This document shows, one piece after another, positions 10,250-63,511 of a stretch of 64,000 nt of DNA. The notes under the pieces were generated by a model that was given only the letters and a program-made list of their open reading frames with translations, searched no databases and was not told the DNA's origin. The stretch's first letter is position 1. Every line of letters starts with the position of its first letter. Made by a program: the position numbers and the translations under genes. Source of the DNA: Nemertoderma westbladi. Taxonomy: Eukaryota; Animalia; Xenacoelomorpha. The DNA lies in the NCBI GenBank assembly GCA_032718475.1, contig JAUCBJ010008293.1, forward strand, positions 2,162 through 66,161, given 5' to 3'.

Positions 10250-10519
10250 CCACCTTGGTGTAGTGGTTGCATTGAATTCACATCTCCTTAGGTCGTGGGT
10301 TCGATCCTCACATGGGCCAGGGCAGTTTTCGTTTCGGCACGAATGCTTTAAAGGGACCAGCCAGGGCGCATCTCTGCCTTGCATCCTTAAGTGCTAGCTA
10401 AATGAGTACTGGAGTTTCCTCTGGGGAGTAAAGTTCTGGGGGACCGCACTGGAAATAAGTCGTCAGACTTCGTGCGTAATCCCTGGCCTAGCGGCCGAAG
10501 AAAATTAACTTTTTTTTTA
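10250..10519 (+). mobile_element. tRNA-derived SINE
   Basis: A box TGGTGTAGTGG, B box GGTTCGATCC, central AAATGAGTACTGGAGTTTCCTCTGGGGAGTAAAG, a 3' stem-loop region and a T-rich end. A related copy lies at 52652. Confidence 0.75.
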
Positions 10520-26429: not shown

Positions 26430-27303
26430 CTAAGCACCAATAAATAATACTTTCCAATCTCCCTTGTTTAGCGGCTGTGTCACCGGCAGACCCTCCCGTC
26501 GCCGTTCCCACACTCCCAACGTGAGGTCCAACGCCTCACCCACCACTCGGGGGACCAGGTCTGCCAGCAGTTGGTAGTCTGTTGTGATAGAAGGGTTCGC
26601 ATTGACTTCTATTAACCAGACACGGAGGTCCCTGTCGACCATAAAATCGAATCCCAATAACTCGAAGTACCCTAGCTTGCGTTCCAATTTACCCGCCACA
26701 GAGTTAAACACGTGCAACATTATTACCCGTATCCTAGGAATTAATTTATTTTTTACCCAATCGGTCCCTATTGTTTTACCTATTGTTGCATTCAAATACT
26801 CATTAAAATCTTCAAAAGACATTAGAGTTTCATCCTTTTTGCTGCAGAAATCTGGGTGTTTCATTTGCTGCAGTTGGTTATTTAAATGCACTATGTGATC
26901 TGACGTGTCATCCATTGTAAACTTCTTTAAAGCCAAACGAATATATCCCTCCCTCGAAAAGACGCAATACGGTTTCGCGCAAGCGATCAGCATGTATACC
27001 CTTATATCGGTTTTGCGACCGTGCACTAACAACGGATTCTCAATGTATCGTTGTATCACTCTGTTCAACAACCAACCTCTCCTCTCTGTTTCGTGTAGTT
27101 CTAGTCTTTCCTTGAACTCTAGAAGACTACTGACTAAATATATTCCTCTTCCCTGATTCATGCCCCCTGGTTTGGAGATCCATACTTCTCCCGTCTTGTA
27201 GTTTTTTATAAAGGCGGCTATTTCTCTTTGAGAACCCAAATTGTGGGTTGTTTTAACAAATTCTGAAGAATGCATAATTTTTCTTCTTATTAACACATTT
27301 AAT
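26430..27303 (-). CDS. TTLL10: TTLL10-like tubulin polyglycylase, exon 2 (last coding exon)
   Basis: TTL-domain motifs VWISKPGGMNQGRGIYL, VIQRYIENPLL..GRKTDIRVYML, HLNNQ, YFELLGFDFMVD and VWLIEVNANPS. Acceptor tttacag|A is phase-compatible with exon 1. Confidence 0.9.
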
Positions 27304-27531
27304 CTGTAAAATAATATCCATTTAATTAAAGATAAATTTTTCTAAGATTTACACATTGCTGAAAATAAAATAATAATATGTTGTTTTAAATCAATTAATT
27401 CTCAAAACACTAAACTTAAAAACAGTGTTTTATTCCACAAAATATGTCATTAAAAACAGACTTACAACTTTAAGTTTTAGGAATACTGTAGGCCTACTGT
27501 ATAGATGGGTTTTTCTAAGGTGAACTAATTA

Positions 27532-29710
27532 ACAGGTCATGCAGCGAGTGGATTGCTGAAATTACGTGGGCCGATCTTTTCCATATTTATGGCACTTTTT
27601 TCATGATATTTTCTTAGAAACTTATTTTGTGCTACTTTGGTAAGGTGGATATGATAACTAGGATTCATAGCAATGTAATAAAATGTGTTTCTGGAATTTT
27701 TATCTTGTATTTGCCAAGGTAACCGGGTGCAAAGCTCAAAATTTGCGCGCCTGTATTTCAAGGCGGCAATGGATTCTTCCCTTGAGATTTGGTAGGTGAT
27801 TAAAGGAAATAAAAGACTATCAAAATATTTAAGATATTATTTGTTTACATTGCCGTTGCCATGGAAATAAGTATAATGAAAAATTTTAAAAATTGTCTAC
27901 CAATTCTATAAAACACCATTTTTATTCGGATTGTCAGTCTAAATAATAAGTTAAATTGCCAACATTTTATTTTTAAATTCGTCAATTGTGAATCATATTT
28001 CTAAAAGTCAATATTTGCAAATAAACTAAACTGTCCAATCAGAGAGCAATACCTGTTATAGCATGATTGTGACATTCCATAATATTAAATTTCGGTTAGC
28101 AATTATTAGAAATAAAGGACAATCACCAGGCATGTTTGTTGGAATTAATATAAGTTGTAAAATATAGTAGCCCAATTCTACTACTAGGATCGGCATGCTG
28201 CATTGCAGCTGCATTTTTAAGAATGCTGTGCCGGCTTGTCAACAAAATTGCACCGCCACAACTCCCTATCACCCATGACATTTGCTAGATCATCCGCATC
28301 TTTATGGCCAGTGTCCTTTAAGATGCGTCTCAAGAAAGTCATGGGCTGTCCACCATGCTTATTCACTCCATGAGGCTGCCAAAGTACAAGATTATGCACT
28401 GGCTGGTCCTCACGGCGAAAGCAATGTCCTGCAAAGCGGAGGCGATTTTGTTCTAGTGTCAAGCTTGGGGGAACCAATGAGACACCTCCAATGTTATATA
28501 GTGTCTGGTTGGAGATGTGTGCATTGTACTTGACACAATGTACCCGGCGTAGCATTCTTGTGAATGTGCCATCCAGAGATTTGGTGTCCTCAGCAGTTAG
28601 AGCCCAGCATGGACTCCCGTAGAGGAGTACTGGAACTACTGCTGCTCTAAATAATCGGACCTTAAGTTTCCGATTAATTCTAGGTGACTTCCAAATCCTG
28701 GAAAGCCTATTCAAGGCTGCCCATGCCTTTCCCTTACGTATTCGAAGGTCCTCACCTGACTTCCGGATCCATGATCCCAGGTAACAGAAGTCGTCCACAT
28801 GCTCAAGCATACCATCCTTTGAGCTTATGCTCATCCGATCAGAGACTTGCTGAGGACTTTCAAAGTTAACTGTCAGAATTTTGGTCTTTCTGGAGTTAAT
28901 AAAAAGACCAACACTAGAAGCAGCATGTTCTAATGAGCTGAGGAGCCGCTGGGCTCCCTCTAATGATTCTGAGAGTACTCCTAAGTCATCAGCAAAGTCT
29001 AGATCAGTTAGGTACTTGGCAGCATTTCCTCGACTTCTGGAGCCAGTAGGTGGAGTTATCATCACCCCATCATCATTATGATGATCTAAGGACATGCGTA
29101 GAACATAGTCAACCACAATAATGAACAAGAATGGTGCAAGTGTGTCTCCTTGGAGGACGCCCCATAACACTTCAAATGGTTCTGTGTCACCGTCAACAGT
29201 AGACACAAATGTTGTCGAACCGTCGTATACTGATCTGATTGCTGCAATAATTTCATCAGGAATCCCATATAATGAAAGTATGCTGAACATACGTGAGCGA
29301 GAGACTGAATCAAAGGCCCAATTCTAGATGGCGGTCAAAATGGGAAATTATCGTAATTCCCGTCACCATGAAAACGGGATTGAAAAAAAATTAAATTTTA
29401 AAATCTTTTGATAGACTTTTATTCCCTTTACTCATATACCAATTCTCAAGAACAGAATCCATTGTCGTTTTGAATTACAGGCGCTCGAAATTTGAACTTT
29501 ACACCCGGTTTCCTTGGCAACTACATACTGTACAAGCTAAAAATTCCAGACACACATTTTTTTATACATTGCAATGAATCCTAGTCATCATATGCACCTA
29601 ACCAGAGTAGCACATTAGAAGTTTCTAAGGAAATATTATGAAAATAGAGCCATAAATAGGGAAAAGACCCACCCACGCTATTTCAGCAATCCGCTCTCAG
29701 CATGACCTGT
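27532..29710. mobile_element. Long-TIR non-autonomous DNA transposon in the TTLL10 intron
   Basis: Diverged inverted repeats of about 300 bp (27532-27835 vs 29400-29710), termini ACAGGTCATG...CATGACCTGT, flanked by TA. Confidence 0.8.
28181..29315 (-). mobile_element. 5'-truncated RTE-group LINE with an open RT/C-terminal frame
   Basis: ORF 28217-29290 has GVLQGDTLAPFLF, LDFADDL, FCYLGSWI, LLYGS and RLRFAGHC; short 3' UTR and (TAG)n tail; 11-bp TSD GCCCAATTCTA (28170-28180, 29316-29326). Confidence 0.92.
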
Positions 29711-30577
29711 TACAGTATTTAGTACACCGTGGTTTTTAACTATAAATGTGGAAGTGAAACAAATTCTTTAAAATGCAGATACCTGGGGGGGGGGGGGGGG
29801 GGGATATTCATGTCTCCAAGGGAATGTCGATGCAAATAACTGCTGATTACTGTACTTACAAAATTTAACTGTAACCTGTTCTATCGATTGTTTATTGTTT
29901 TGGTTAGAATAACACACAAATCTGCTAACTGTTATTCCTAAAACTACTTTAATGCTTTAGACTTTAAACTTTAATGGACTAAGATTTCTTTTAATGGATT
30001 TATATAATTATTGTCCTTTATATGTCTGGCTATTACAGTATAGTTACGCCAAATAATGTAATATGTAAAATGGAAACAAATGAATAAATGGATTTGTGAA
30101 GTTAAGACATGCATCTCCATTTGATTATTAGGTTTTCTGCTGCCGTATAATTTCATTATGATCGTGATGAGTGCTGGACTTTCGACGCAATAATAATTCT
30201 TTCCTCTCCAAATGCACCTAACCCTCCAGGGCTCCAGGGCTCCAGGGCTCCAGGCATACAACCCGCTGTTGACAGCGACTATCGCCAAAACAAATGAATT
30301 TATCTAATCATTTTTATTGATTTCTGTCAGCCAGACTATTAATATCGATATTTTTTTGTTTCCAAATTCCAAAATTTTTTTAACACTCAAGGCATTCTAT
30401 ATTTATTATGAATGCTGTATTTATTAAATTCTTTGAGAGGGTGAATTATCTTATCGTGGATATAATGTGTCTGATGCGAGACAAGGGGGGGGGGGGGGGG
30501 GGGGTCTTAACGCAAATACCATTCCGGCGAAAAAATATGTCTTCGTAATGCTAAAATATCAAGGGAAAGGTGCAGGT

Positions 30578-31663
30578 GGCGCAGTGGCGGTACGGCTAAT
30601 GTCGCGTTACGGAAAGTCGCGTTACGGAAAGTCGCGTTACGGCTAATTTTCAGAGTAGCCGTAACGCGACTTTGAAAGTCGCGGTACGGCTACAGTACTC
30701 AAGTCGCGTTACGGCTAATTGTCGCGTTACGGCTAATCTATTGTCTTGGTTTTACAGAGGGAATCATTATCAATATTATTCTATGGTGTTTATACTGTAC
30801 GTACAGATGAGGTTCGAAAAATTTAATAATTTTTTACAGCATGGAAGTATCCAGGGGGTCCTATTAATAATATATAAGTAATTATTAGTAAATATTTTAA
30901 ATAAAAAAATTAATTTATTAATTATTGTATTATTATTGTTGTATTGAGTACCAGAGTACACAGTACCATAGTTATCTTGGTCGAAAGTATATCAGCATAT
31001 TGCCGAAATATTGTACTTTGATCAAATAAAAATTATCTAAAACTAAAGCTCTTGAATTAGCCAGTCATCGCCAATGCAGCTGGACGGGGCCTGTACCTTC
31101 AAGTGGGTGATCCGCGACCAGAAGGACGGCCATTGCCTGCTTGTCAGTCCCCAAACAGAACGCCATATGGTCTAGGTAGCGAGCCAGAGCCAGGCGATCG
31201 TTAACAACATCGATATGAAGCAGAGGAATTTGTTCCATGAAACCATTCATTGCTTCTTTGGCTGCTATTATTGGCTGTAATCCGTATCTGTGCTTGAGGC
31301 TGTGACTAAGAATACCATAGAATACAATATTATATTGAATGTGAGGTTGTCGAAGAACATACAGTATGAAAGAAGGTAAAATCCCCCACCCCCCCCCCCC
31401 CCCCTCCCGGATACTCCCATGCTGAAAAACATTAAAACATTATTACGTTACATTTTTCGAACCTCATCTATACGTAAACAACATACATAGAGGCATGATA
31501 AACACTGCATTATTATATCATTATATTATTGATAATGATTCCCTTTGTAAAACCAAGACAATAGATTAGCCGTAACGCGACCATTAGCCGTAACGCGAAT
31601 TTTAGAGTAGCCGTACCGCGACTTTCAAAGTCGCGTTACGGCTAATCTCTCAGCGACGACACC
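30578..31663. mobile_element. Mutator/Foldback-like MITE in the TTLL10 intron
   Basis: Inverted arms of about 290 bp with GTCGCGTTACGGCTA subrepeats and an 8-bp direct repeat GTGCAGGT (30570-30577, 31664-31671). Confidence 0.7.
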
Positions 31664-31881
31664 GTGCAGGTTACATTTTAGCAGGTTATATTGTATGTTA
31701 TTCTAACCAAAACAATAAAGGGAGAACTTTATTTTTTGATTGTCACAAAGTAGTATTGGTATTATTAATACCTGGCCAAGCTGAATTAGGTCTACTAATA
31801 CTCAAAATACTAAAACACTTAAATTTTGAACGAAATAAGCAATTCGAATAATTACTAATGTATTTAAATAACTAAAATTAC

Positions 31882-32387
31882 CTGTCGTAGGCTCTTAAGG
31901 TTTCTAGAAGTCCAGTTTTGCAGGTAATCTTCCCAATATTAGGGAAGTGATTGACCAGCTGATTGCCCTCTAGGAACCGCGTGAAATCAAGACCCCGGGG
32001 CGACGCGGTCCATTTCAACCGAAACATCCCGCAATCTTTATCCTCGTTGCGTCCCCATCCGTAACGTTCAAGTAACCTAGCAACCAACTTCCCATTATTC
32101 TGGGGTTGAACATAAAAGCAAGGCGGTGATTGGATACTTGCCCTGCGTCCAGCTCTGCTCCTCATACTACTTCTATAAGACGCTACCCAGACTGACCGAC
32201 GTCCTGTCTGCAATTCAGACTCCTCATTAACACCTTTTGGAATAGATAAAACAGTGGCTTTTATTTTGGATCCGATCTCGAAGCTGTTATCCGACTTGCC
32301 ACCATTCTCTATTGTCTTACCGGACACAATTGTATTTTCATTCCCATTATTCTCTTCAATTCCAGTTGTAGTGGTGATATCTTCCAT
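31882..32387 (-). CDS. TTLL10: TTLL10-like tubulin polyglycylase, exon 1 (start inferred at first in-frame ATG)
   Basis: PCFYVQPQNNG..LERYGW...FRLKW...FLEGNQLVNHFPNIGKITCKTGLLETLR matches the N-terminal part of the TTLL10 domain. Donor AG|GTAATT at 31882/31881. An upstream exon cannot be excluded. Confidence 0.82.
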
Positions 32388-34790
32388 ATCTCTGAATATA
32401 TCATTATTTTTACGTCGACACAAATCAGCTGAAAAAACTATCCTGAAATTGCGCAGCTGCTTTATTATAAGTATGCCTAAAATATCTCCATTTAATAATT
32501 TATTTAATAATTAATTAAATATTCACATAAATTGAACCAAATATTTCTTAATTATCTTAAATGCTAGCTAGAGTGTTGGCATGCAAAAATGATCAAAATT
32601 AATTAAGTTAAATTTCGAATATTCATTTGTTCCATTTTTTTAAAATCTACTGTAGTACGCAAAATATTGAATAATACAGAATTTAAATATTGCTATTCTC
32701 TGTTACGAATATCATGCCGTGGTTAAGGTAGTTTAAAGGGGAGGAAAGCACTCGTCTATTTTATTTGCCACTCGCCTCTCTCGTTGACTATACTTTTACA
32801 CAATAAAGTGCTTCTTTATTAAATGTGAGATAAATACAGATAAATATAAATATAAACAGAGATAAATATAATGTTATATTAAATAGCTAATTGCTGTGAA
32901 TATATTTATTACTGTAGTTCAATACTAAACAATTATTTATTAGATTCCTGTAATAACCCAGTCAGTGAAATGTAATATCTGCAGAAATATTCTACAATTT
33001 TAATTCCGATTTGCAAAGATTTCATTTAAATATAGGCCAACAATGAAATGTAGCTGCATACCTGTATATAAAATATTACAGTAAACTTATACCTATGTCA
33101 CGAGCTGAATGTTAAACATACCATAATACTAGAATAGTGCCAGAAAGTGAATAACCTGGAATAATAGGTGAGGTATTAGTTTTATATTAGATCCCCTCCC
33201 TTTACACTTAATAGTTTACACTAAACAGCCTTGTAATAATAATTTAATTGCCTGGTATGTAATAATATTGAAGTTGTACAAAGTTGAAACAATTCCAAGG
33301 GATACAATTTCACAGGGCGGGGTGGGAGGGGGTGGGGGATAACTGTCGCAAATCCCATCTAGCGAATCAATATCGGCCAAATATCAATGTTAATTATTAT
33401 ATCCATTAACGGAAAGGAGCAGGTTTCAGTAGCAGGTCATTCTAACCAAAATAATAAGCGGGAGGCAATGATAATATAGGTTATTTCCTTCTTTGCTGTT
33501 ATTTGCTTTGATTTCCCTACATTAGGGTACCTGCCAAATAAAGGACCCGAATATTACACGACAAGCAATGATAACATCCTACCGGTAATATAATTATAGT
33601 CAAGGTAATATTGGGCTCCAGTGATCCTCAAATTAAATTGAATGTTGATTGGCATTGGGTAGTGTTGCCGCTACAAAGGAACCCAATCCTAATAGAAAGT
33701 TAATAATTAATTGGTTTTTAATCTCTCGACATTCTGATCGACTCAATCTATTGGATTTCATGGCCTCAGCTATTGGTTGCTAGGGGGATATAATCATTAT
33801 CTGAGATTTACGAGCTCACAATCGATAGCCTGGCCTCTGAACCAATCGTAATAATAATATTAGATAGGAGATTATTTTTCCTGATATACGCCAACCTCCG
33901 ACAAACACCCACCCCACCCCCCAACCCCTTCCACTTAGGAAAAATCGCAAAGATACAATTTATTGAAGAGGTAACTTTTAGTAAAATGGCGAATTTGCGA
34001 AATATCAATAGTAGGCCTACAGCGAAAATAACTGAGGGAACGTCGACAATTTATTGATAATAGATAGAAATTGGTGAAATTTTTGGTGAAAACAAACTTT
34101 AGTCCAATGAGAGCATTGAATGACTATCGATTTACTGAACTACATACAGTATGCACTTCTCCATAGTTACCAAAGTTTCCAGAGCAACGGAAGTTTTTCT
34201 AAACATTTTAATCAGTTTTATTATTATTTGGCTGATAGGTATATTTTATTAACACAACTTCACTTCTAAACGGGGGGATTTAAGCCCTTCAGCTGAGTCG
34301 ACCTCAGAAACCCTCAGAAACACAGACCCCTATTACATTATGTGAAAAATCTCCTCTAACATTCACGGAAATAAATAAAAATATACTTTCAGTTTGAATT
34401 GTGTATTATTTTATGCATCAATTATTATTACCTTATTAAACTAAGTATGTGGGGCAATTTTTGATATATTTAAAAATTGTATGGTGCCACTAATTACGGA
34501 CTGCTACAAAATCTATTTTTGTCTCCAATTATGTCAAATTACCCCGGATATCGAATCTCAGTCAGATACGCGGTATTTTAAAATAAGTATTAGTATTTCA
34601 AATTACGACATGTGAGTAGGCCTATATTTAGAAAGACACTCATGAATGTTAATTTATTTTTGTGAAAAAACTAGTTATTATTTACTAAAAATTATTGATT
34701 ATTATTAAGCAGAACAAACAATATCTATTGCAGCATTAAACTGACGGGCCAGTCTTGCTGTGGTTTTAATTTTATTGTTAAATAATTGGT

Positions 34791-38875: not shown

Positions 38876-38916
38876 TCACAACGCGTTTCGAATTTATTAA
38901 ATTCGTCATCAGGTGA
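38876..38916 (-). ncRNA. Minimal type I hammerhead ribozyme in a Penelope pLTR
   Basis: Minus strand reads TCAC-CTGATGA-C-GAATTT AAT AAATTC-GAAA-CGCG-TT-GTGA: complete core, palindromic stem III ACGCGT, GUU triplet. Confidence 0.85.
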
Positions 38917-39651
38917 GAACAGTAAAACACAATTAGCATTATTGTAATACCTACGACAGGATAAACTTTAAAGAGTACAGTACAGAAAACTGCATATTTC
39001 AATTTGAATATCCCTCCCAAATAATCCCAATCCTTCAATCATTGTCTACAACTCTGGTGACCCGTGAGTACCAGAGTTGTAGAGAGACTCCTACAGTAGC
39101 TCCGTTTGCTTATTAAGCAGAGGAGTAGTTGCCTCCCTAATATTCAGGGCGTCAGCTACCTTGGCATGATACCATGAGCTGCATCTGTATTCTACTCTAA
39201 AATCTTACTCGGCTGGGCGTACTTAGCTACATAAAGGTCAATGTTCAGATTTTCCAGCCGGTCGCCTATGTTCACCAATCCGCACATGATAATGGCGCAC
39301 TGTGTGGCCAATGTAATCCTTGTTACAGGATTGACAGTGGTATGAATATACCAAATTTGACCAGAGTGGTTGGGGAACACGGTCCTTATTGGGAAACAAT
39401 TTGCCGACTTTATTCGACCTGAAAGCTAACAAAAAACTTGCTTGCTTGGCGACTACTGTACAGCTGTAAGTCTTTTCTCAAAAACCCCATCATAACGATA
39501 GAAAGGTAATGATAGAACCAAGTTTTTCTTACGTGGTTCATTTATTATTATTATTCATCATTTATGTTGCTTATGCAGTTTTCTGTACTGTACTCTTTAA
39601 AGTTTATCCTGTCGTAGGTACTACAATAATGCTAATTGTGTTTTACTGTTC

Positions 39652-39692
39652 TCACGTGATGACGAATTTAATAATTTCGAAACGCGTTGTGA
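39652..39692 (+). ncRNA. Inverted hammerhead copy with a C3>G core mutation
   Basis: TCAC-GTGATGA-C-GAATTTAATAATTTC-GAAA-CGCG-TT-GTGA. Confidence 0.7.
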
Positions 39693-50835: not shown

Positions 50836-51137
50836 GTGAAATTTAACCACGAACCATCACAGCCACAATGATTAATTAATTAAACACTCTAACTACTAAT
50901 TTAGGAGGACTGTTACACCCATAGAGAAATGCGACCGGTTATTTTTTTTAAATTCATTAAACTGGTGTTTAGTGTGAATGAGTGGTTTCATATTAAGTTG
51001 GGAACAGCTTAACAAACTCTAAAAACTATATAAGTAACTTATTATTATGAATTAGAAATTATTCTATCGGATATATATTATATACCTGAGGAGATGACGA
51101 GTAGCCAAGCAACCGGAGCCCCGCGTTACATACTCAC

Positions 51138-51479
51138 CTTGGCAGCATCGGAGGTCGCCGTCCCTCTACCACCACCATCGCGGGTATCCGTCGCCCCGTA
51201 CAACTCTAACCTCAACTCCCGGGCGCTTTTACGCAGCATATCGAACCCGATGTGTTGCTTCCCGTTGGCGTGGTCGTCCACGCGGGTCGGCGCGTCGTTC
51301 ATCACCAGGAAACAGCCGCACACCTCGCAGACCTCCATCAGTTTGGTCTGGTTGGTGTACTTCTCGTCGGTGGCCTGTTGTCGCTCTCTCGCTTTCAGCA
51401 GATGGTCGCACTCTGACAGCTTCTGTTGGGCGGCGTCGACTAGACCATCGGAACCCAGACGTTCCACATCGTCGAGAAT
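51138..51479 (-). CDS. LUC7L3: LUC7L3-like, exon 3 (second zinc finger)
   Basis: MEVCEVCGCFLVMNDAPTRVDDHANGKQHIGF; acceptor tttag|ATT, donor AAG|GTGAGT. Confidence 0.93.
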
Positions 51480-51591
51480 CTAAACGCCAACAACGGGCTA
51501 TCAGTATCTATAGTAACTGAGTAAAAATACAAAGACGGCTGGTAGCTATACTGCTATAGTAACTGAAAACCGAGTAAACAAACAAACTAAC

Positions 51592-51739
51592 ATCTTGTAT
51601 TTTAGTCTGCAACACATCGGACTGCGGTTCCTTCCTCCCGTCAGGAGTTCTCACCAAGGCTGTTGAACCGCACAATCTCAGCCTTTCCTGCCCCTGTCTA
51701 ATACGGCCGTCGCATTTGCTGATAATGCTCTGTATAAAT
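51592..51739 (-). CDS. LUC7L3: LUC7L3-like, exon 2
   Basis: FIQSIISKCDGRIRQGQERL...; acceptor catag|A, donor GAT|GTTAGT; phases fit both neighbouring exons. Confidence 0.88.
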
Positions 51740-52185
51740 CTATGGGGATTACAAATATTATAGAATAAAAATTGGGTAGACCTAAAATGTTGCAGTGTTA
51801 TTATGGAAAGGAGCAGGTTACAGTGGCACGTTATTTTAACCAAAACAATTAACTAAACACAATAGAACAGGTTACAGTTTTATTTTTGAGAGTTTATCAG
51901 CTGTTATTTGCGTCGAAATTCCCCTATTTAGTAGCCTACAGTCTGACAGTAGTCTGGTAGTACAGTAGTACAGTACCGGTAGTACAGTACTGTTGTAGTG
52001 TTGCTGTATTGCCTCCCCAAAATGCCAGTGGAGCGATCAGACGATTACAGGATTAGGCCTACAGGAGTGGACAATTGCAGAATTGAACGTTGAAAGGCCT
52101 GTTCTCCTTGAAGAAAGAACCGACAAGTGGACAGACCAGTAAGTCAGTAAGTGGGAAGTGCGGTCTGGTCTGTTTACAGTCTAAC

Positions 52186-52448
52186 CTGAGAAAATCGTCC
52201 TCATAACGAAGACGTTTGTACCGAGAACTCTTCTTATATTCTTCAACCAGTGCTGGGTCGTGGACCAGAGGACATGGCCCGAGGTCGCTTTTCGTGTTAT
52301 TGAATAATGACATTGGACAATATGCTACCAGAAAGTATTTGCAAACACTCTCATCATCAAACCCAATCTTATAACCTTCTTCATTAGGAAGCAGGTTTCG
52401 GTTGGTTCCCATCAATTCATTTAGCAAATCTCGCGCTGCGTCACACAT
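52186..52448 (-). CDS. LUC7L3: LUC7L3-like, exon 1 (first zinc finger)
   Basis: MCDAARDLLNELMGTNRNL...SVCKYFLVAYCPMSLFNNTKSDLGPCPLVHD matches the LUC7L3/CROP N-terminus; donor AG|GTTAG. Confidence 0.93.
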
Positions 52449-52651
52449 TGTGTGATTTTACAAGAATATTAACAGTAACAATAAACATCTGAACATAAAT
52501 GAATACTGCTGTACTGGAATACTGTAGGCGTATTACTGTACTATAATATTAGGAGAGGCCTATAGCTGTAGGACAGTAGGATAGTTAAAACTTCTCTGTC
52601 TTTATCTGATCAGCTGATATAACGGATGACGGTATCTGATACTTCGCGCTT

Positions 52652-52826
52652 GTTCCACCTTGGTGCAGTGCCATCTTGGTGTAGTGGTTAGATTGAATTC
52701 ATATCTCTGTGAGGTTGTGGATTCAACCCCCGCATGGGGGCCAAGGTAGTTTTCGTTTCGGCACGAATGTCTTGAAGGGTTTAGCCAGGCATCTCCTCTG
52801 CCTTGCCGTGCCTTGCCCTTAAATGG
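52652..52826 (+). mobile_element. Truncated tRNA-derived SINE, same family as 10250
   Basis: Shares TGGTGTAGTGGTT..TTGAATTCA and GTTTTCGTTTCGGCACGAATG with the 10250 copy. The B box is degenerate. Confidence 0.7.
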
Positions 52827-53945
52827 TTGCAAAATGACCACTGCCCATTCCCAGCGAAAAAAAGAACATCAGAAAGGAATTTGGCCAATTCGCTATCATT
52901 AGGGAACTTTCGTATTTTCGACCATCTTCCCAAAACAGTCCGCCTCTGTAAACCTGCTCCTGGGTGTTGGCGTTTTCCGCCAACATTTTTAAATGGTGTG
53001 TATTCGATAATATATTTAAGGGCTATGCACTTGAAATTTATTGACTTTTCCTAAAATTTACTGGCGAATCTCGTAGTGTCATTTATGTTTTTGTACGATT
53101 GTTAGTTTTTTTGCAAATGAGATTTTATCAAAGGGAAGTCAAGAATTTTATTCAAATTTACAAAAATAATTCTTGGTGCTGTCACTATTATTATTCCTAA
53201 ATTCTGGTTGGACAATGTCTTACTTAGCCTTGGCATCCAATCAAATACCAAACTATTCAACCAGTTTTACCAGCGAGACACATTATTTAATTGAATTAAA
53301 TAATTACAAGTGAAGGTAAAGGTAACACAAAGCCTTTTGTTTACTTCATACTGGAATTGAGAAACCTGAAACACACAGCTGGATAGAAAACTGGGTAGAT
53401 ATCTGCAGACAAGTTTTCATCTAAGGATTTATTGAATTAAGTCACCAGGAGTCTAGAACTGCCTCCAGCAAAGCAAATTAGGTTGGCTTCCCAGGTTGTT
53501 GTTGTTGCAGACAAACTACAATACGAATTTAATTATCCATTCCCCTGGACCCACATTGGCACATTTTGGTCCAAGTTACAATAGCCCTCTGGGATAGCGG
53601 CGCACATCAAAGCTAGCCAACAACTACCGTTATAAAATGTCAATCAAAATCAATCAAAATGGGAAGTACTCTGGTGTAATATGTGCGTCGAAAAGGGCGT
53701 TTTCTTGTTGGTTCTGCTAACTATTGTGCTGTGCACTGCTGCTACTTAGTCTTCCTTCCACCTGTGCCTTTATACTGTAATCTATAATGTTTTAAAGAAG
53801 TGATCTCTCTTTTTATTGGCTGATAAATGTAGTAGAAAAAACAAATATTAGGCACGAGACGAGAACACAAAACACGAATACAAACACAAAACAATTAACA
53901 AAACAATTAAAAACTATACTTTGTTAAACAAGTATTTAGTATTTG

Positions 53946-56900
53946 ATGTATTTAATCGGGTGTAATCTGTCGGGTGTCCCTGTCACAAGTTTGTCGGGTG
54001 TCCCTGTCACTGCCACCAATCTGTCGGGTGTCCCTGTCACCGCCACCAATCTGTCGGGTGTCCCTGTCACCGGTCTGTCGGGTGTCCCTGTCATCGGTCT
54101 GTCGGGTGTCCCTGTCACCAGTTTTTCGTGTGTCCCTGTTACCGGTCTGTCGGGTGTCCTTCTCCCTGTCACCGCCACCAGTCTATCGGATGTCCCTGTC
54201 ACCAGACTGTCGGGTGTCCCTGTCACCGGTCTGTCGGGTGTCCTTCTCCCTGTCACTGCTAGCAGTCGGTCGGATGTCCGTGTCACCAGTCTGTCGGATG
54301 TCCCTGTCACCGGTCTGTCAGGTGTCCCTGTCACCGCCACAAGTCTGTCGGATGCCCCTGTCACCAGTCTGTCGGGTGGCAACCATTGCTGTAGCTGCAG
54401 CGCATCTGGGGGGCGTTGCACTAGGTGTGTATGCGCAAAGGAAGGGCGTCACTGCACTATTTGTGGTCCGCTGTTGGTGGGGAGATGTGAGAATTTCATT
54501 GGTCCCATTAACCCTAAACCCATTCCTGACCTTCCCCGGGTTTGTCCAGTAGTCCGTCAAAGGCCTTCTTCAATGTTGACAACAAGGTCACCAACGATAT
54601 CTTGGTTCGGACAACCAATACCTGCCCCAGCTTTCTTAGACACATTACATCGAGTGTACAATGTGATAGTCCATTGGCGATCGAATTTGTTTCTTCTTCC
54701 CCCAGGCGCGGCCGGTCGCGAGGTCGTTTCCGAGATGTCACGGCTCCTCAACATGTTCAGTGGCGACTTCGGACTCGAGGATGCTGCTCTAACGGCGTTA
54801 ATGATTCTCCCCGCCCTCCTCCTACAGAAACCATCCCGCTCATCGAACGCAGCGACCCACCGACGAGTTTTAGAACGTCGCATGAAATCTTGGAAACTCG
54901 GCCGGTTTGAAGAACTTCTCCAAGAGGCCAGCGCAATCCAAGCCCACCTCAAACGTGGTTCCTCCCGCGTGGCAACCATCCATAATAATGCAGCTGAGCG
55001 CGCTTTCTGCCGGCACATGCTGGTCGGCAATGTGAGTGCAGCCGTTCGTAGTCTAGACGAGCTGTCTAAGGGAGGGTTACTTAAACTTAGCCAGATAGTT
55101 ACAGATAAGAACGGAGTCACTAAAACTGTGAAGGAGTTTCTGTTGGACAAACATCCCCCTGCAGAAACAGCAGACAATACGACATTGCTGGAGGGATTTG
55201 ATCGGGCACCTGAGTTCCATGGAGTTATATTCGAGAAGATTGACGCCCAGTTGGTTCTCACTAGCCTCCTTCATATTAACGGGAATGCTGCTGGCCCTTC
55301 CGGTCTCAACGTCCAGGGATGGAAGTACATTGCCACCCGATTCCGGGGAGCCTCTTCTGAGCTATGTTCAAGCATCGCCATGGCAGCGAGAAAGGTTGCC
55401 CAAACACCAATTGACTCTGGTCGTCTCTCATCGTTACTCTCGGCTCGCCTGGTTGCTATAGATAAGTGCCCGGGCGTCAGGCCGATTGGCATAGGGGAGG
55501 TACTCCGACGCATTATTGGAAAGTCAATCATTGCGAGCGTCTCGGATGATCTACAGACTGTTGGTGGCTCAGTACAGTTATGTTGCGGGCAGAAAGCGGG
55601 GATTGAACACGCCGTACATAGTCTAAATGACGCGTTTGACAGCGACGGGTGCGAGGCGGTTCTACAAGTGGACGCAAACAATGCGTTTAATTCATTAAAC
55701 CGCAGCGCTGCGACACACAATATCGGCATCGTTTGTCCTTCCCTTAAGACTGCGGTTTCCAACTGCTACGCCCAGCCAACTAAACTGTTTATCGGGGGCG
55801 AGTTTATATACTCGTCCGAGGGTTTTACCCAGGGCGACCCTCTCGCCATGCCGAGCTACGCCGTTGGGACGATCCCGCTGTTAGATGAGCTGGAGGAAGC
55901 GTCCAGCGTGAACCAGAAGTGGTATGCGGACGACGGGAATGCGGCCGGAACGCTGTCTGAGCTCCAGGAAATGGTGGGACGTAGTAGCTGCGCGGGGTCC
56001 TTTATACGGGTACTTTCCGACGAAATGTGTCCTCCTCGTAAAGCCAGAGTTTCTCGGAGAAGCAGAGTCCCTATTCCCGGAACCCTGCTTTACGATCGAG
56101 GTCCGTGGGTGCCGACTTCTCGGCGGCGCCGTCGGCACTGAAGAGTTCCGACAGGAGTTCGTCGACGCCAAGGTTACCGAGTTTATCCGACAGGTGGAGC
56201 GTCTCGAAGGAATCGCCGCCATTGACCCGCACTGCGTATACGCGGGCCTCGCGATTGGGTTGTCGGCGCGTTGGCGATACATATCGCGTGTTATTCCGCA
56301 GTCTACGGATCGGTTCGGAGATCTCGAGGCTGCCGTCGAGAAGTGTCTTGCGTCGTTAGCGGGGCAGCCTGCCATCACTCCTGCGGAACGGGAACTCTGT
56401 TCGCTCCCGGTGCGCCTTGGAGGTTTAGCGATCCCGCTTCCGTCCGACCTAGAGGAGCAATATAGTAATTCTAGATTGTTATGTGCGCCATTTAATAAGG
56501 GGGGTAACGTAAAAGAAAGAGCGGAACTGCAAAAAGAGGCTACTAACCTTATTAGGATCCGGGAAACCGCCAACCTGAAGAAGAAGGTCGAGGAGGTTCA
56601 TTTAGGACTCAATCGGGACCAACAACACCTACGGGAGCTGACATCCGAGAAGGGCGCTTCGTCCTGGCTAAACTCTCGCCCGGTGACGATCCACAACACT
56701 CACCTAGGTAAGCAGGAGTTCCGCGACGCTCTATGCCTGCGCTATGGTTGGCAACCGAGACTTCTTCCGGCCCGGTGCGCCTGTGGGACACGATTTTCAG
56801 TAAATCACGCTATGTCGTGTCCTACAGGCGGCTATCCGTCTATTCGCCACAATGAAGTCCGCGATTTCTTCGCCACTACACTAACCGAAGTAGCGCATAA

Positions 56901-57468
56901 CGTCGCGGTCGAACCTCATTTGCAGCCAGTCACCGGTGAGCAGTTCATCCGACATTCCACTTCCACCGACGACCAAGCCCGCCTCGATGTGTCCGTCTGC
57001 GGTTTCTGGGGTTCCAGGTATCAGAAGATATTCCTGGATGTCTCCATCTTCAACCCCCTAGCCCCCACGAATGCTGCAATGCCTCTCGCCGACGCCCACC
57101 TCCATCACGAGGCCCGCAAGCGTAATCTTTACGACGAGCGGATTCGTGAAATTGAGTTGGCGACATTTACGCCGCTCATATTCTCGGCGTATGGTGGCTT
57201 CTCGCCAACCACGTCTCAGTTCGTGAAGCGACTCGGGATATTACTCTCCGAGAAGCGTGAGGCACCGTACTCCGAGTGTATTCGTTGGATCCGCCGTGAA
57301 TTGAGTTTCGCACTCCTCCGCGCGGGTTTAATGTGTCTGCGGGGTGCGCGTTCTGCACGGAATCGACCGGTACGCTGCGAGACTCCGATACAGATGTCCA
57401 ACTCGGACACCGACACGTCGCCGTACCCATGGGCGACTAAATCACCTATCTGCATGTCCAGGTTTTGA
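53946..57468 (+). pseudogene. CRE ORF with a single +1 frameshift
   Basis: ORFs 53943-56141 and 55924-57468 join as GTLSEL-RKWWD if one C at 55964/55965 is removed. Confidence 0.85.
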
Positions 57469-58124: not shown

Positions 58125-58750
58125 TAAAAACTGACTATAATATAAAATATTTAATAGATTTGCAGTAAAAATATGTAGTTCATAATTAAATCGTTACAAA
58201 ATTGAGATTTTAATATATATAATTTAATATATACTATATACTGTATATGCCCTAGGAGCATAGGCCTATACATTTTTGATTTGAACGAATTATGTTTTTG
58301 ACAGACCAATATCAAGCAAGTAAAATTATTTGGAAACAGAGAAACAACATGTTCCTATCTGTTCAACCGTAAGTAGTCATCGTTTTATTTAAGCAGGGCC
58401 ACAAAGCGCAACCCTGTTTAAATACTGTAAGGAAAATTATCACATTGGTTACATTTAATATTTACGCTATATATATTATATACTATATATATGATATATA
58501 TATATATATGTGTGTGCTGAGAGCATTATGCCCTCAGCTGCTAGGTCACGGGTTCGATCCCGGTATCTAGCTAAATGAACATTTCGATCTTATGTGGGCC
58601 TACAAAGCGAGGATATGGTTATGTGATTTCTGCTGAGGAGTTTTGGAAATGGGTTTGATGGATTGAGATTATTAATGTTGAACGTGTGTGTGAGTGCCCC
58701 CCCCCCCCCCCTTGTATAACTTGAAATTAATACTCCATATCTCAAGAACC

Positions 58751-58851
58751 TGTGGCCTAGTGGTTGTTGTCTCGGCCTCAACCTCGTGGTCCCAGGTTCG
58801 AATCCGACATCACGCTGAAGAGAACCAGTAAGGTCGAAACGCGTACGTGGT
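58751..58851 (+). ncRNA. tRNA-like Pol III head fused to a minimal type I hammerhead (SINE-like retrozyme)
   Basis: A box TGGCCTAGTGG (58753-58763), B box GGTTCGAATCC (58795-58805), then ATCACG-CTGAAGA-GAACC AGTAA GGTC-GAAA-CGCG-TA-CGTGGT. Confidence 0.75.
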
Positions 58852-59015
58852 TTGGAGAGATATGAGATATTAATTTCAAGAAAAATTACGCGATTTCTAA
58901 ATTTGTACACTACCCGGTTAAAAAAGTACGCATGTGATGGGATTAGTCCTACAATTGCGCCAATAAAAGATAAGTTATTTTCGGTAAAATAAACTTATCA
59001 ACGTACAACGTACAA

Positions 59016-59400
59016 GGCTGAGATATCTCCCTCGTGAGATGACTCCCCAGTTATCTCAGCCTAGACTGAGAACACACCTCAGTCGTCTCAGCCTAGGCTG
59101 AGAACACGCCCCAGTTATCTCAGCCTAGGCTGAGAACACTCCCCTTAGGCTGAGATGACTCCCCTTAGGTTGAGATGACTCCCCTAATTGAGTTATAATT
59201 CATATCCATACCTGTGGTATTTTCGTATATTGTAAAAATAAACAGTAACCTATGTTATTGAGTTATTGAGTTATCGTTTATTGTTTTTGTTAGAAAGGCC
59301 CGCCACTGTAACCTGCACTTTCCGTTAATTAATAAATCTTTTTAAATCTATGGAGAAAACTGGAGAGTGTTCTCAGCCTAGGCTGAGAAGACTGGGGAGT
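59016..59400. mobile_element. MITE-like element with palindromic subrepeats
   Basis: Repeated CTCAGCCTAGGCTGAG palindromes at 59050-59170 and an inverted copy at 59358-59400. Confidence 0.55.
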
Positions 59401-59594
59401 CTTATTTGGCCTTATTTGGTAGTACAACTGTATTGCAATACAATACAGTATTACAGTATTTGAATTACTTTACATTATTTTATATGGTCCTAATAATTAT
59501 TTGAATATTAATTTACTTTAAATTAATTAATCGTACTCTATTATTTTATCGTCTCTAATATTAATATGCCTATTTATTGTTGTTGTAAGTTATA

Positions 59595-60490
59595 TTACAG
59601 TATATGTCGCAGTTTGTAAAATATATCTGTAGATTTTGTGATTTTTTTAAATGTGTAGTTTGCGTGAATTTTCCAATCTAGTTTAGAGTCGATCCATGCG
59701 CCAAGTATTTTTGAACATAAGTTGTGAGTGATTGGTTTATTGTAGATTGTAATGTCAGCAGAGGTTGGTGGGATAGTTTTAGTAAACATTGTAAATTCAG
59801 TTTTTATGAAGTTCAGTAGTAGCTTGTTATCGTTTAACCAGTCAAATACTTTTGCTAACTCTGTATTTGTATTGATTATTAGCTGTTTATAGTTTCTATG
59901 TGAATTTAAAAGTGTTGTGTCGTCTGCAAATAGAGTGGATAATAAAGAAGTTACTTTTGGTAATTCATTGATAAATAATTAGAATAGTAGGGAGAGAGAA
60001 CGGAACCTTGTGTAACTCCGCATATTATAGGTAGTAGTAACGATGTTATTTCACAGATAGAAACAGTCAAATTGGTAGCGATCTGACGGAAATTAATTGA
60101 AGTGGAAGATACCATAACATTTGAGTTTATTCAGTAATATTTTATGATCTAAGGTATCAAAGGCCTTTTTCAGGTCTACGTAAACTGCACAAGCGTTATT
60201 GTTGGAGTCTAAAATTGTGTGGATTCTTTCAGCAATGGAGAGTAGTGCATGCGTGTTTGAAGTTTTTGGTCGGAAATCATATTGAGAAGTAGTAGAATTG
60301 AGTATTGAGTATATATAACTAAATATGTTTGTAGTTGTGATTTGATAATGTGTTCTAGAATTTTGCTTAGTATAGGTAGTAGTGATATGGGTCGGTAGTT
60401 GTTGGGGTCAGATGGACTTTTGGGCTTATATACAGGAATTGTTTTGGCTATTTTAAGGGAATTGGGGAAGAACCCGTATATTTGGAATGA
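59595..60490 (-). pseudogene. Decayed CR1/L2-group LINE reverse transcriptase
   Basis: [58 protein letters not shown] and KILGAWIDSKLDW motifs with stops and frameshifts. Confidence 0.88.
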
Positions 60491-60660
60491 TTGTTAATTT
60501 ATACTTGTTACTCACTTACCCCACTTCATTCACATTGCTCATTGCATGGCTTCCTTACTTCTAGCTTGGTATCACCATGTGCTTCAGTTCCCATTCATCT
60601 AGTTATTACAACAACAGACCCCCACTCAACCTCTACTTCTGCTTCCTACTTACTGGTACC

Positions 60661-61023
60661 ATGGCATTTAACAGCCCTCTGAAACCCCCCAAACTGGTTC
60701 CACTCAGCAAATCAGAGATGATCGATTCCTTTGAAGTATGGCGCAACAATCTAACTTATTCGCTTTTGCTCCAACCCCAGTTTGCACCATTTACAACCTT
60801 GGGTGCCACCTGGTTGCGCCATTTCCACACTGTACCATTCCGTGGTTTTGCCGATGAGCCAAACACCATTGCTCCAGCAGATCGCCATACCGCCCTTCAA
60901 AAGACTACAGCGCTGGAGCTTATGCTCGGCCACGTCGCCAATTACGCCGCCGTTATTGCGCGTAACTCGATCATTCAGGACTCCACTTCCTTGCTCTCCA
61001 TATGACATGCCATCCGCCTGCAT
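60661..61023 (+). pseudogene. Gypsy-like gag N-terminal fragment
   Basis: PPKLVPLSKSEMIDSFEVWRNNLTYSL..FAPF...LELMLGHVANY..IARNSII..STSL resembles the gag of an invertebrate Gypsy lineage. Internal stop at 61003-61005. Confidence 0.7.
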
Positions 61024-61029
61024 TATATA

Positions 61030-63511
61030 CCATTATAGCATTATAGCGTGTTCAGTGACAGGGTTTTCATTTACATTCTTGCGGGATCCAACCTCAAGGA
61101 GTCGAGGGGCTGGGTCGTTGCAGATAATAGCAGGGGGACGGCTGAGGGGGCACATGCCAAAGGCAAGAGTAGTTAAGACTTCGCGTAGGGTGTCACTCTG
61201 TTCATCCGAGAGTAAGACAACATTCGAGTAGAATGACACAGTCTCCTGTAAAAGGAGAATACAACGGCGAATGACTGGCCAATGATGGAGGGTGGGTCGA
61301 TGGCTGACTGGGGTACAGTACGCTTGGGGTTGTAGAGAGGGCGACACACTGGTGGCATTGGGCGGTAACCTCATCGAGAGCATGGTCGAGGTCCAGGGTG
61401 TAGAAATACCAGGAAAATGTGGTACGCATCTGGGACTTGTTAGGGTGTAGAAGCTCGATGTGTAATGAGGTGAGTAATCCAATAAGAGCGGAGCGGTGTA
61501 TGATGATGACGTCAAGGGGGGATGTAAAGGGATGTACCAGTGGACTACAACAAAGTCAGAGGCAAGTAGAGAAGATACGCCCAGGTATCATTTGACATCC
61601 TTGCTGTGTGTATCGTGTTTGGAGGGCCGGGTACAGGAGGCGAGATTTTCGGTGATACGGATTAATTCGGAACACTCATGTTGTGTGGCGAGCCACGCGG
61701 GATGACTGGCATAGAGGGGGTGGGGATTGGGGCTATCGGAAGCAACAAAGCATTTCCATGGGGGGGGGGGGGGGGGAGTTTGGTAGTAATGCTTGCGTTG
61801 ATGTGAGTTGGTAGGCAACAGGGTATGGGTGGTTGGGTGATGATGGGTTCGGGCTGTGAGATGAGGCAGACAACTGGTGTGACTCTACAGCAGCGGCGAC
61901 AAACGCACACACTTGGCAGGACATGAGAGGGCATGATGGAACTTTTTGGGTTTGGAAGTCAGCAGGGAGGTTAGTAGAGCCCTTTATGTGGGATACGGTA
62001 ACGTGGGCCTGGCGAGGTGCTTGCGAGGAATGTAGACAAGCGTGGGCTAGTAGGATATGCACCATGGGACAACTTTTTAAACTCTTCAACACAGGGTTTA
62101 CTATCTGTGAGAATGTGTGGTTGGCGTGTGGAGGTAATGAGGTATGAGAGAAAATGTTGAACAGTGGCCATGATAGCGAGTGCCTCCAACTCACAGGGAA
62201 GCCAAATGTGTTGGTGGGCCTTAAGTTTACAGGAGTAAAACCCAGTGAGAAGCAATTCCTTGGAATGTTTGGCGTAGAGAATGGCACCATGGCACCTGGA
62301 TGAGGCAGCATCAGTGATGAGGAATAGCTTGTTGGTGGGCCGCAGGATCGTGATTGACCTGCATGACTGTAGGGCAGCTTGGAAGCACCGGAATACTGAC
62401 TCGAGTTCGGGGGTCCATGTCACTGGATAGTAATGAGGACCTGGAGAGAGATTAGGGCAGAACAATGGGGGAGTATGTGGGAGAGAACCTTATAGGATTC
62501 GATTCGGACATGGGGTGGGGTAGGACATTGGGATAAGGTGGCTGTGATATGGGAGGAAGCCCATAATGAACCACTAGACGACATCCTACCAAGGATGGTG
62601 GTAGTCTGGGGGCAAATAATGGTCTTCTTAGGGGACAAATGCAAGATAGCATGGTGTAGGGCACGGAGGAGGGTGGTGAAATTAAGGAGGAGTTCAGGGA
62701 TGGTGTTGCTGCCACAATAGATGTCATCGGCGTGTTTGACGACAGAGCCCTGGACGAGAAGGTCTCTGAGGATGCAGGACATTAACTCCTCGAAGGCAGT
62801 CTCGCTGCTGGGCATGCCCGTGGCACAGCAGAGGTAGACGCGAACACCATGAAATGGTGTGGATTCGCTGCAGAAACGTATGGAGTTGCGGTGGAGTGGT
62901 ATCTGACAAAAAGAGATGGTGAGGTCCGCCTTAACGAGAAACGTGAACCAGCTGAGGGCTCAAATGGTGGATTCAACATCTGGGAGGAGTGCGGGTTATG
63001 TTTTACAATATTTGGCGATCTCTGTGAATGCAGTGACAAGCTGAGTTCCTCCGTTTTGCTGGGCGACGAGAAAGCTGGGGTTGAAAGCGGGGTAGCTCAG
63101 TTGGTTGAGCGCCAGGCTTGCAATCTATTGGTTGTAGGTTCAGCCCCGCCAGGGTCCACTCAGCCTTTCATCCACTGGGGTCGATAAAATGTGTACCAGT
63201 TGAAATAACTGGGAGCAAAACCTGGGATAGGAGTAGCGCCCACCCCTACCCTCGGGTAGCAGCTATCGGAAGAGGAGCCTTCGGGTCGCCTCCGGCTTCG
63301 GCCGACTGTTTGCTTTGCTTGCTTGCTACTACATTCACACTGGCCAGCTGGATGAAGATGCCAAGGCGCTCAAGTGAATCGAACTTCTCCTGTAGTTCAA
63401 TGAGACGATCGCGGGAGTATTGTGGGATGCGACCTTTACATTGGGGTGGCAACATAGGAGTAACATTGACGACAGCTTCAAATGGACCAGCAGATTCGTT
63501 GTATCCAGGAT
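61030..63511 (-). pseudogene. Decayed Gypsy-like pol (RT, RNase H, integrase)
   Basis: PQYSRDRLIELQEKFDSLERLGIF, FNPSFLV, GMPSSETAFEELM, KHADDIYCG, LITDAA, WLPCELEALAI, ILTDSKPCV and LEVGSRKNVNENPVTEHAI motifs across several frames. Confidence 0.88.
63086..63327 (+). mobile_element. tRNA-derived SINE inserted into Gypsy pol
   Basis: Head GGTAGCTCAGTTGGTTGAGCG..TTGCAA..GGTTCAGCCC, central GTCCACTCAGCCTTTCATCC..GGTCGATAAAATG, structured tail and (GCTT)n end. It splits VNVV from FNPSFLV. Confidence 0.82.

What the first reader, a model, noticed from the sequence alone, without database searches (positions are those of the whole stretch)
58720..58880. Pol III tRNA-like promoter fused to a hammerhead ribozyme, enclosed by an inverted repeat
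Seen: a correctly spaced A box (58753) and B box (58795) are followed within a few nt by a complete hammerhead core (CUGAAGA...GAAA, stem I ATCACG/CGTGGT, stem II with one bulged A, palindromic stem III ACGCGT, GUA triplet). The ~100-nt unit is bracketed by an imperfect ~31-bp inverted repeat (58720-58750 vs 58849-58880). Established: minimal type I hammerheads with palindromic stem III occur in Penelope pLTRs and retrozymes and cleave as dimers, and Schistosoma Sm-alpha is a tRNA-headed, hammerhead-containing repeat. Inference: this is an extremely compact SINE-retrozyme family that could make self-cleaved or circular Pol III RNAs mobilised by the Penelope elements seen in this window.
Basis: partly seen in the sequence, partly recalled or inferred. 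Interest (0 to 1): 0.85.

Follow-up and report, generated by a model that had tools for sequence, protein, structure and literature searches.

The report
Truncated tRNA-headed hammerhead retrozyme copy
This is one cut-short, slightly decayed copy of an abundant non-coding repeat in an animal genome that joins tRNA-type promoter boxes directly to a hammerhead self-cutting RNA motif; the intact repeat likely makes its own RNA and is predicted to cut it into unit-length pieces that would be pasted back into the genome, a design already known from blood flukes.

Summary
The A box, B box, type I hammerhead and inverted repeat are real (0 of 150 simulated windows gave the combination). Contigs of public runs show a high-copy repeat covering 58721-59000 that continues at both ends. 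One 441-nt contig fits a closed 411/412-nt unit (inferred). The inverted repeat is internal, not a bracket. Head and ribozyme lie on single contigs in four studies. The 'bulged A' and two other defects are private to this copy: the family majority has a perfect 6-bp helix I, CUGAUGA and a 4-bp helix II. That is the canonical retrozyme-type hammerhead, not the minimal Penelope type. Best reading: a solitary, truncated, likely dead copy of an Sm-alpha-like retrozyme with its own Pol III promoter. Cleavage, expression, circles, tandem arrays and the mobilising enzyme are untested here, and no Penelope ORF was found in the window. One new lead: folding predicts the hammerhead forms only when the left repeat arm is in the RNA, which may act as a switch. 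The scan already noted what is likely this family as 411/412-bp arrays elsewhere in this genome. New member of a known kind; interest 0.4.

The parts
58721..59000 (+). Partial unit (280 nt) of a high-copy non-coding repeat; cut short at both ends relative to the family; 8 substitutions against the majority plus a 1-nt length variant at 58920
   Evidence: depth step at both ends, shared loose ends before 58721 and behind 59000, one contig spanning all of it
58721..58743 (+). Left arm of the internal inverted repeat (58720 pairs in this copy but lies outside the family boundary); upstream of the predicted Pol III start near 58746
   Evidence: start site inferred from A-box position (recalled rule)
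58753..58763 (+). A box of a tRNA-derived head
   Evidence: no majority difference listed at 3%
58771..58788 (+). Anticodon-arm-like hairpin; the majority gives 5 bp with one bulge and a loop that reads TCC (tRNA-Gly-like, inferred; no tRNA program hit)
   Evidence: ARAGORN and Rfam tRNA negative
58795..58805 (+). B box; tRNA likeness ends here (T stem only 2 of 5 bp); its last three bases pair in the distal part of hammerhead helix I
58803..58856 (+). Type I hammerhead: distal helix I 5 bp, helix I 6 bp, core 58815-58821, helix II 58822-58835 with 6-nt loop, GAAA, palindromic helix III 58839-58844, predicted cut after A58845
   Evidence: majority letters
58857..58879 (+). Right arm of the internal inverted repeat, abutting hammerhead helix I
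58887..58897 (+). Stretch complementary to the hammerhead core strand 58836-58845 (possible anti-ribozyme strand; predicted only)
   Evidence: 31 of 2000 shuffles as stable
58969..58999 (+). A/T-rich hairpin holding the only T4 run of the visible unit (58978-58981), a possible weak Pol III terminator

Best explanation
The stretch is a solitary 280-nt piece of a high-copy non-coding repeat whose unit joins tRNA-type A and B boxes to a canonical type I hammerhead motif, and the family is likely an Sm-alpha-like non-LTR retrozyme with a 411/412-nt unit. Shown here: the anatomy, the high copy state, the linkage of head, ribozyme and inverted repeat, and the perfect helices of the majority form. 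Inferred steps: (1) Pol III starts near 58746 in one unit of a tandem array and sometimes reads through the T4 run into the next units. (2) In such multimers the inverted repeat closes over head plus ribozyme and extends helix I; two hammerheads pair through the ACGCGU palindrome and cut after GUA. (3) The unit-length RNA, with its promoter now at the 3' end, may be circularised by a host ligase. (4) A borrowed reverse transcriptase, more likely Penelope-type (about 0.55) than LINE-type (about 0.3), copies it back. This copy has one hammerhead, less than one unit and three private changes in the ribozyme, so it is likely a dead end product.
For: Depth rises from 13-22 in the left flank to 60,000-815,000 (summed; not a copy number) over 58727-58992 in three DNA runs, with 539, 846 and 1590 contigs laid. 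Six of the 25 listed pieces (3057 in all) bridge the head/ribozyme junction with 31 or more letters on each side, and one spans 58721-59000; a third study shows B box to cut site on one 70-nt contig (X6 record 19). Majority letters restore a C-G pair in helix I, U7 and the 4-bp helix II; the core and helix II letters are seen in three studies of organism A. The X4 contig is 39+279+123 = 441 nt, which is 411 nt if it is a cycle with a 30-nt overlap (assembler behaviour recalled), and a 1-nt variant at 58920 splits about evenly. This gives 411/412, the sizes in earlier unchecked notes on tandem arrays in this genome. A monomeric helix III costs about 5 kcal/mol, while the palindrome self-pairs at -7.5. 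There is no + strand frame above 57 codons over the unit. PMC6765202 (passages) describes the same promoter-then-hammerhead design for Schistosoma.
Against: No tandem junction was seen directly: the missing ~132 nt are not in the window and no genome is held. The by-sequence look-up found no link to the earlier array notes, so their identity with this family rests on size and anatomy. Copy ends do not pile up at the cut site (table 6 empty; none of 17 listed of 104 loose-end rows). No compensatory changes were seen at 1%. A joint that skips the hammerhead (58809 to 58954) has depth 2137 in X1 and 1079 in X3, so a ribozyme-less derivative may also be multi-copy (short side only 18-20 letters, weak). 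A T4 run at 58978-58981 could stop Pol III before the next unit. Loose ends become mixed about 20 nt behind 59000, which could be a linear end. Rfam scores are far below gathering. Only 1 of 9 predicted Xenopus retrozyme dimers cleaved in vitro (bioRxiv 10.64898/2026.07.22.740005).
Confidence: 0.72

Rival explanations
1. The unit is the terminal repeat (pLTR) of a protein-coding Penelope-like element that carries a tRNA-derived promoter, and this copy is a truncated end piece.
For: PLE ends carry type I hammerheads and most copies are solitary truncations (PMC4209133). The ACGCGT palindrome is shared with the PLE-type hammerhead pair at 38.9/39.7 kb. No clean target duplication. Unchecked notes report such elements in other genomes.
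Against: The hammerhead is canonical (helix II 4 bp, no unpaired base), unlike metazoan PLE minimal forms (helix II 7-8 bp). No open frame starts in or after the ribozyme. The X4 contig length fits a closed 411-nt unit.
Confidence: 0.1
2. It is an ordinary linear tRNA-derived SINE that captured a hammerhead as a passenger and is copied by a LINE; cleavage plays no part in its spread.
For: T4 run inside the unit; ends not at the cut site; a possibly multi-copy derivative without the hammerhead; LINE-type RT fragments are common in the window; in a PLE assay hammerhead cleavage was not needed for insertion (PMC11167929).
Against: The family extends at least 123 nt upstream of 58721, well 5' of the promoter, which a Pol III monomer transcript could not carry along. 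The majority ribozyme is perfect in core and helices. No poly-A or simple-repeat tail is visible.
Confidence: 0.1
3. It is a non-autonomous DNA transposon (MITE) whose inverted repeats flank a captured SINE-hammerhead cassette.
For: A 24-bp inverted repeat surrounds the cassette; the window holds several inverted-repeat elements.
Against: The repeat is internal: family sequence runs on for at least 123 nt on the left and 160 nt on the right. There is no target duplication at the arms. The arms stack directly on hammerhead helix I in the fold.
Confidence: 0.05
4. Chance adjacency of unrelated motifs.
For: Rfam hits are below threshold; the descriptor was written after seeing the motif.
Against: 0 of 150 simulated windows; linkage on single contigs in several studies.
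Confidence: 0.01

Closest known systems
Sm-alpha / Sj-alpha SINE-like hammerhead retroposons of Schistosoma (seen in passages of PMC6765202 and PMC2770079; the primary paper PMC108972 is not held)
   Same: tRNA-derived Pol III promoter followed by a hammerhead, high copy number, non-coding; the promoter ends up at the 3' end of the cleaved unit, so single copies are dead ends.
   Different: Here the B box overlaps the distal part of helix I, an internal 23-24-bp inverted repeat closes over head plus ribozyme, and the head looks Gly(TCC)-like (inferred), whereas Sm-alpha is tied to tRNA-Gln-TTG in PMC2770079. Homology was not tested, and the host taxon was not resolved beyond animal.
Metazoan non-LTR retrozymes (PMC7229834 and PMC7761336 passages; bioRxiv 10.64898/2026.07.22.740005 parts 1-3 of 5)
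   Same: Canonical type I hammerhead with palindromic helix III, non-coding unit of a few hundred nt, solitary monomer copies, proposed Penelope origin and mobilisation.
   Different: PMC7761336 states that these elements do not seem to harbour promoters; this family has exact A and B boxes. Tandem arrays and circles were not shown here.
Penelope-like element pLTRs with minimal hammerheads (PMC4209133 and PMC11167929, parts 1-2 of 4 each)
   Same: Type I hammerhead with palindromic positions 15.2-16.2; insertion without a clear target duplication.
   Different: Helix II is 4 bp rather than 7-8 bp, helix I 6 bp rather than 4-5 bp, no unpaired base at the start of helix II, and no ORF.
Helenus/Ajax/Cassandra TRIMs with small-RNA-derived promoters (PMC10886601, abstract and passages)
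   Same: A Pol III promoter inside a non-SINE, non-autonomous retroelement.
   Different: They have LTRs, PBS, PPT and 4-5-bp target duplications, and no hammerhead is mentioned for them in the passages seen; no LTR pair or target duplication is seen here.

Membership tests
Sm-alpha-like SINE-hammerhead retroposon | tRNA-derived A and B boxes upstream of the ribozyme | tested here: met
   unchanged in the majority
Sm-alpha-like SINE-hammerhead retroposon | High copy number | tested here: met
   539-1590 contigs and about 10^4-fold summed depth over flank; not a true copy count
Sm-alpha-like SINE-hammerhead retroposon | Pol III transcription | not testable with these tools
   no RNA holder listed
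Sm-alpha-like SINE-hammerhead retroposon | Sequence homology to Sm-alpha | not tested
   no Sm-alpha sequence was available from a tool
Non-LTR retrozyme | Canonical type I hammerhead (helix I 6 bp, helix II 4 bp, intact core) | tested here: met
   majority form; this copy has three private changes; Rfam below gathering score
Non-LTR retrozyme | Tandem units of about 150-450 nt | tested here: inconclusive
   single partial unit in the window; the 441-nt contig fits a 411-nt cycle; arrays only in unchecked notes
Non-LTR retrozyme | No coding capacity | tested here: met
   for the 280 visible nt; about 132 nt unseen
Non-LTR retrozyme | Self-cleavage and circular RNA | not testable with these tools
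   needs bench work or RNA reads
Penelope-like element | RT plus GIY-YIG ORF linked to the hammerhead repeat | tested here: inconclusive
   none in the window; genome not held
Penelope-like element | Minimal hammerhead (helix II 7-8 bp, unpaired base at its start) | tested here: not met
   against PMC4209133; met instead by the pair at 38.9/39.7 kb
MITE | Inverted repeats at the termini with a target duplication | tested here: not met
   the repeat is internal; best flank match 6 of 7 nt, offset; true family ends unseen
Classical tRNA SINE | Element begins at the tRNA head and ends in an A-rich or simple-repeat tail | tested here: not met
   family sequence continues at least 123 nt upstream of 58721

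The most novel reading that the evidence does not exclude
A self-promoting circular-RNA retroposon that arose independently of Sm-alpha and carries a built-in folding switch. A strand at 58887-58897 sequesters the hammerhead core in transcripts that start at the element's own promoter, while the inverted repeat, complete only in read-through units or circles, clamps the ribozyme domain into the active fold. Cleavage would thus be licensed only in multimers, and the tRNA B box doubles as part of helix I.
Probability: 0.15. Interest if true: 0.7.

Novelty: new member of a known kind. Interest (0 to 1): 0.4.

Why it matters
A review of retrozymes (PMC7761336) says animal retrozymes seem to lack promoters and depend on read-through, and in my nine searches the promoter-plus-hammerhead design turned up only for Schistosoma. 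A homogeneous, abundant family with exact Pol III boxes in another animal genome would show that the design recurs. It also gives a tractable test of three open steps: which polymerase makes retrozyme RNA, how cleavage is restricted to multimers, and which reverse transcriptase inserts the copies. This particular locus is the least useful member for those tests, because it is truncated and mutated.

Tried and rejected
Whole-genome copy search: no genome held. Second copy in the window: none; the two loose-end motifs are absent from the window apart from one poor match. Expression: no RNA holder listed. X4 is only guessed to be RNA and gave one majority-type contig at depth 13.8 without flanks, which trace DNA of a high-copy repeat explains equally well, so it was not used as evidence of transcription. 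Termini at the cut site: not seen; contigs are poor for this. Empty site or target duplication: no joint across the insertion among 15 of 26 listed joints, and 59012-59040 had no cover; no paralogous empty site in the window. Same architecture elsewhere: a B box + hammerhead pattern gave 19 metagenome stretches; 3 of 19 have helix I of 5 bp or more (L005; L014 and L017, the same motif), and none of these shows an A box by eye. An exact 26-nt motif gave 0 hits in prokaryote genomes and viral contigs. Host taxon: the best named TTLL10 hits are animals at 39-43% and a LUC7 search gave nothing, so it was left at 'animal'. Ideas of Helitron, piggyBac, Ginger or solo-LTR ends, read from the 3' loose end, were dropped because the true ends are unseen and the contig length fits a cycle. 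A heterodimer with the 38.9-kb hammerhead was rejected because the helix I strands are not complementary at the first pair. The majority sequence was not folded; all folding is of the window copy. Papers PMC5785218 and PMC108972 are not held. No supplements were read, so retrozyme consensus tables there could hold this family or other promoter-bearing ones.

Full report
Observation. The box consensus is recalled, not from a call. A descriptor written after seeing the motif finds 2 hammerheads, 2 A+B pairs and 1 joint occurrence in the window, against 0, 1 and 0 in 150 simulated windows. The 161 nt fold at z = -5.9. Library support is weak: Rfam has nothing at gathering score, and the best clan hit is HH9 at 16.4 bits, E 0.21, though the alignment covers all three helices and the distal helix I. 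ARAGORN finds no tRNA, and the T stem has only 2 of 5 pairs, so the head is a tRNA-like promoter and not a gene. The inverted repeat is 24 bp at 88%, not a solid 31.

What the family looks like. No genome is held and the window has no second copy, so I used contigs of public runs (7 listed, 5 laid). Summed depth rises from 13-22 in the left flank to 60,000-815,000 between 58727 and 58992, with 539, 846 and 1590 contigs in three DNA runs of two studies. The tool warns that this is no copy number; hundreds to thousands of copies is my inference. The repeat starts at 58721 and stops at 59000 in this copy, and the runs share loose ends on both sides, so the copy is cut short at both ends and the inverted repeat is internal. 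Six of 25 listed pieces (3057 in all) bridge head and ribozyme with 31 or more letters on each side, 13 of 24 listed pieces (691 in all) run from the B box past the cut site, including a 70-nt contig at depth 1811 in a third study.

This copy is decayed. It differs from the majority at 8 positions. Three lie in the ribozyme, and in each the majority is better: C-G instead of U-G in helix I, U7 in the core, and C-G instead of an A x G mismatch in helix II. The last two are seen again in a third study. The majority thus has helix I of 6 bp, helix II of 4 bp with a 6-nt loop, and a palindromic helix III. PMC4209133 (parts 1-2 of 4 read) calls this the canonical metazoan form, distinct from the minimal Penelope form with a 7-8-bp helix II and an unpaired base. 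No compensatory change is listed at 1%; the family is too uniform for a covariation test, and the only other rows come mainly from one X6 contig with core-breaking changes.

Unit size. One contig (X4) is 441 nt: 39 behind, 279 aligned, 123 before. If it is an assembly cycle with a 30-nt overlap (recalled behaviour), the unit is 411 nt, and a 1-nt variant at 58920 that splits about evenly would give 411 and 412. Earlier unchecked notes of this scan describe 411- and 412-bp tRNA-head-plus-hammerhead units in tandem in this genome. They moved me from a MITE reading to a tandem-unit reading. I could check only the size and the anatomy: the by-sequence and relatives look-ups returned nothing, and I saw no tandem junction myself. 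The loose ends turn mixed about 20 nt behind 59000, which could be a linear end or a subfamily.

Mechanism. As a monomer, closing helix III costs about 5 kcal/mol (-7.5 to -2.3), while the palindrome pairs with itself at -7.5, so cleavage as a dimer is the likely mode, as for newt and axolotl hammerheads (PMC7229834, passages). Pol III would start near 58746. The only T4 run is at 58978-58981, so multimers need leaky termination or outside read-through. The left arm of the inverted repeat lies upstream of that start, so the repeat can pair only in read-through units or circles. In folding of the window copy, helix I has probability about 0.8 for transcripts that start at 58721 and reach 58880 or further, and 0.00-0.02 for those that start at 58740-58750 and reach 58900 or further. 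In the latter, 58887-58897 pairs with the core strand 58836-58845. That duplex is the best of 97 ten-mers, but only narrowly, and 31 of 2000 shuffles match it. Caveats: the test is post hoc, nested folding cannot show a pseudoknot, the majority was not folded, and it changes one base of that strand (58896). I give the switch 0.15.

Mobilisation. A 2026 preprint (parts 1-3 of 5 read) argues that animal retrozymes derive from Penelope pLTRs, but only 1 of its 9 dimers cleaved in vitro. In the window, Pfam finds RT fragments in 6 of 134 frames scanned (171 listed) and no GIY-YIG domain; by recalled motifs they look RTE-, CRE-, CR1/L2- and gypsy-like. A Penelope-type hammerhead pair on opposite strands sits at 38876-38996 and 39572-39692 with the same palindrome; one copy has a changed C3. 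The insertion has no clean target duplication (best 6 of 7 nt, offset). Copy ends do not pile up at the cut site. That fits internal initiation as shown for an anole Penelope (PMC11167929, parts 1-2 of 4) or a circular template, but it is also what a passenger ribozyme would give. A weakly supported joint suggests a multi-copy derivative without the hammerhead. Penelope is a lean, not a result.

Comparison and novelty. Passages of PMC6765202 describe Schistosoma SINE-like elements as a Pol III promoter followed by a hammerhead, with single copies unable to propagate; PMC2770079 ties Sm-alpha to tRNA-Gln. The design is therefore known. PMC7761336 says metazoan retrozymes do not seem to harbour promoters, which makes a second promoter-bearing family worth having. 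Nine literature searches gave no report of this design outside Schistosoma; the library lacks most subscription papers and I read no supplements. A pattern scan of metagenomes found no clear second case among 19 stretches. The host is an animal by its best named TTLL10 hits; I could not place it further, so independence from Sm-alpha is open.

Verdict. A real feature and a new member of a known kind, seen here as a truncated and likely dead copy. The tandem arrays noted elsewhere in this genome would be the better material. Interest 0.4; the possible folding switch is the one lead specific to this analysis.

Noticed in passing
window 38876-38996 and 39572-39692: 121-bp inverted repeat (97.5%) bounding an ~820-bp element; each arm has a Penelope-type minimal hammerhead (helix II about 7 bp, unpaired C, ACGCGT); the minus-strand one at 38912 is intact, the plus-strand one has C3 changed; no ORF recognised between them.
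   Followed up: partly
window 10247-10382 and 52668-52806: Two copies (79%) of a separate tRNA-headed SINE with A and B boxes and no hammerhead.
   Followed up: partly
window 58520-58620: B-box-only SINE-like remnant just upstream of the element, at single-copy depth; X3 shows two haplotypes there.
   Followed up: no
window 59015-59403: MITE-like element with 32- and 20-bp subterminal repeats and ~50-bp inverted arms, starting 15 nt after the retrozyme copy.
   Followed up: no
window 53940-57468: Nearly intact non-LTR retrotransposon in two frames (733 and 518 codons), CRE-like by recalled motifs; weak RVT_1 hit.
   Followed up: no
window 26430-32510 (-): TTLL10-like polyglycylase gene with very long exons; an RTE-like RT fragment (28217-29323) lies between them, inside an inverted-repeat element.
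   Followed up: partly
window 51129-52457 (-): LUC7 splicing-factor gene in two exons.
   Followed up: no
window 59598-63184 (-): Decayed LINE-type RT (59598-60493) and a decayed gypsy-type RT-RNaseH region (61974-62959).
   Followed up: no
run X6 record 17 on window 58788-58878: A 1831-nt contig at depth 401 carries a diverged copy, apparently the one with core-breaking changes, so dead copies may also spread inside larger repeats.
   Followed up: no
L014 601-665 (same motif in L017): Metagenome contig with a Penelope-type minimal hammerhead preceded by an exact B-box match but no A box.
   Followed up: partly
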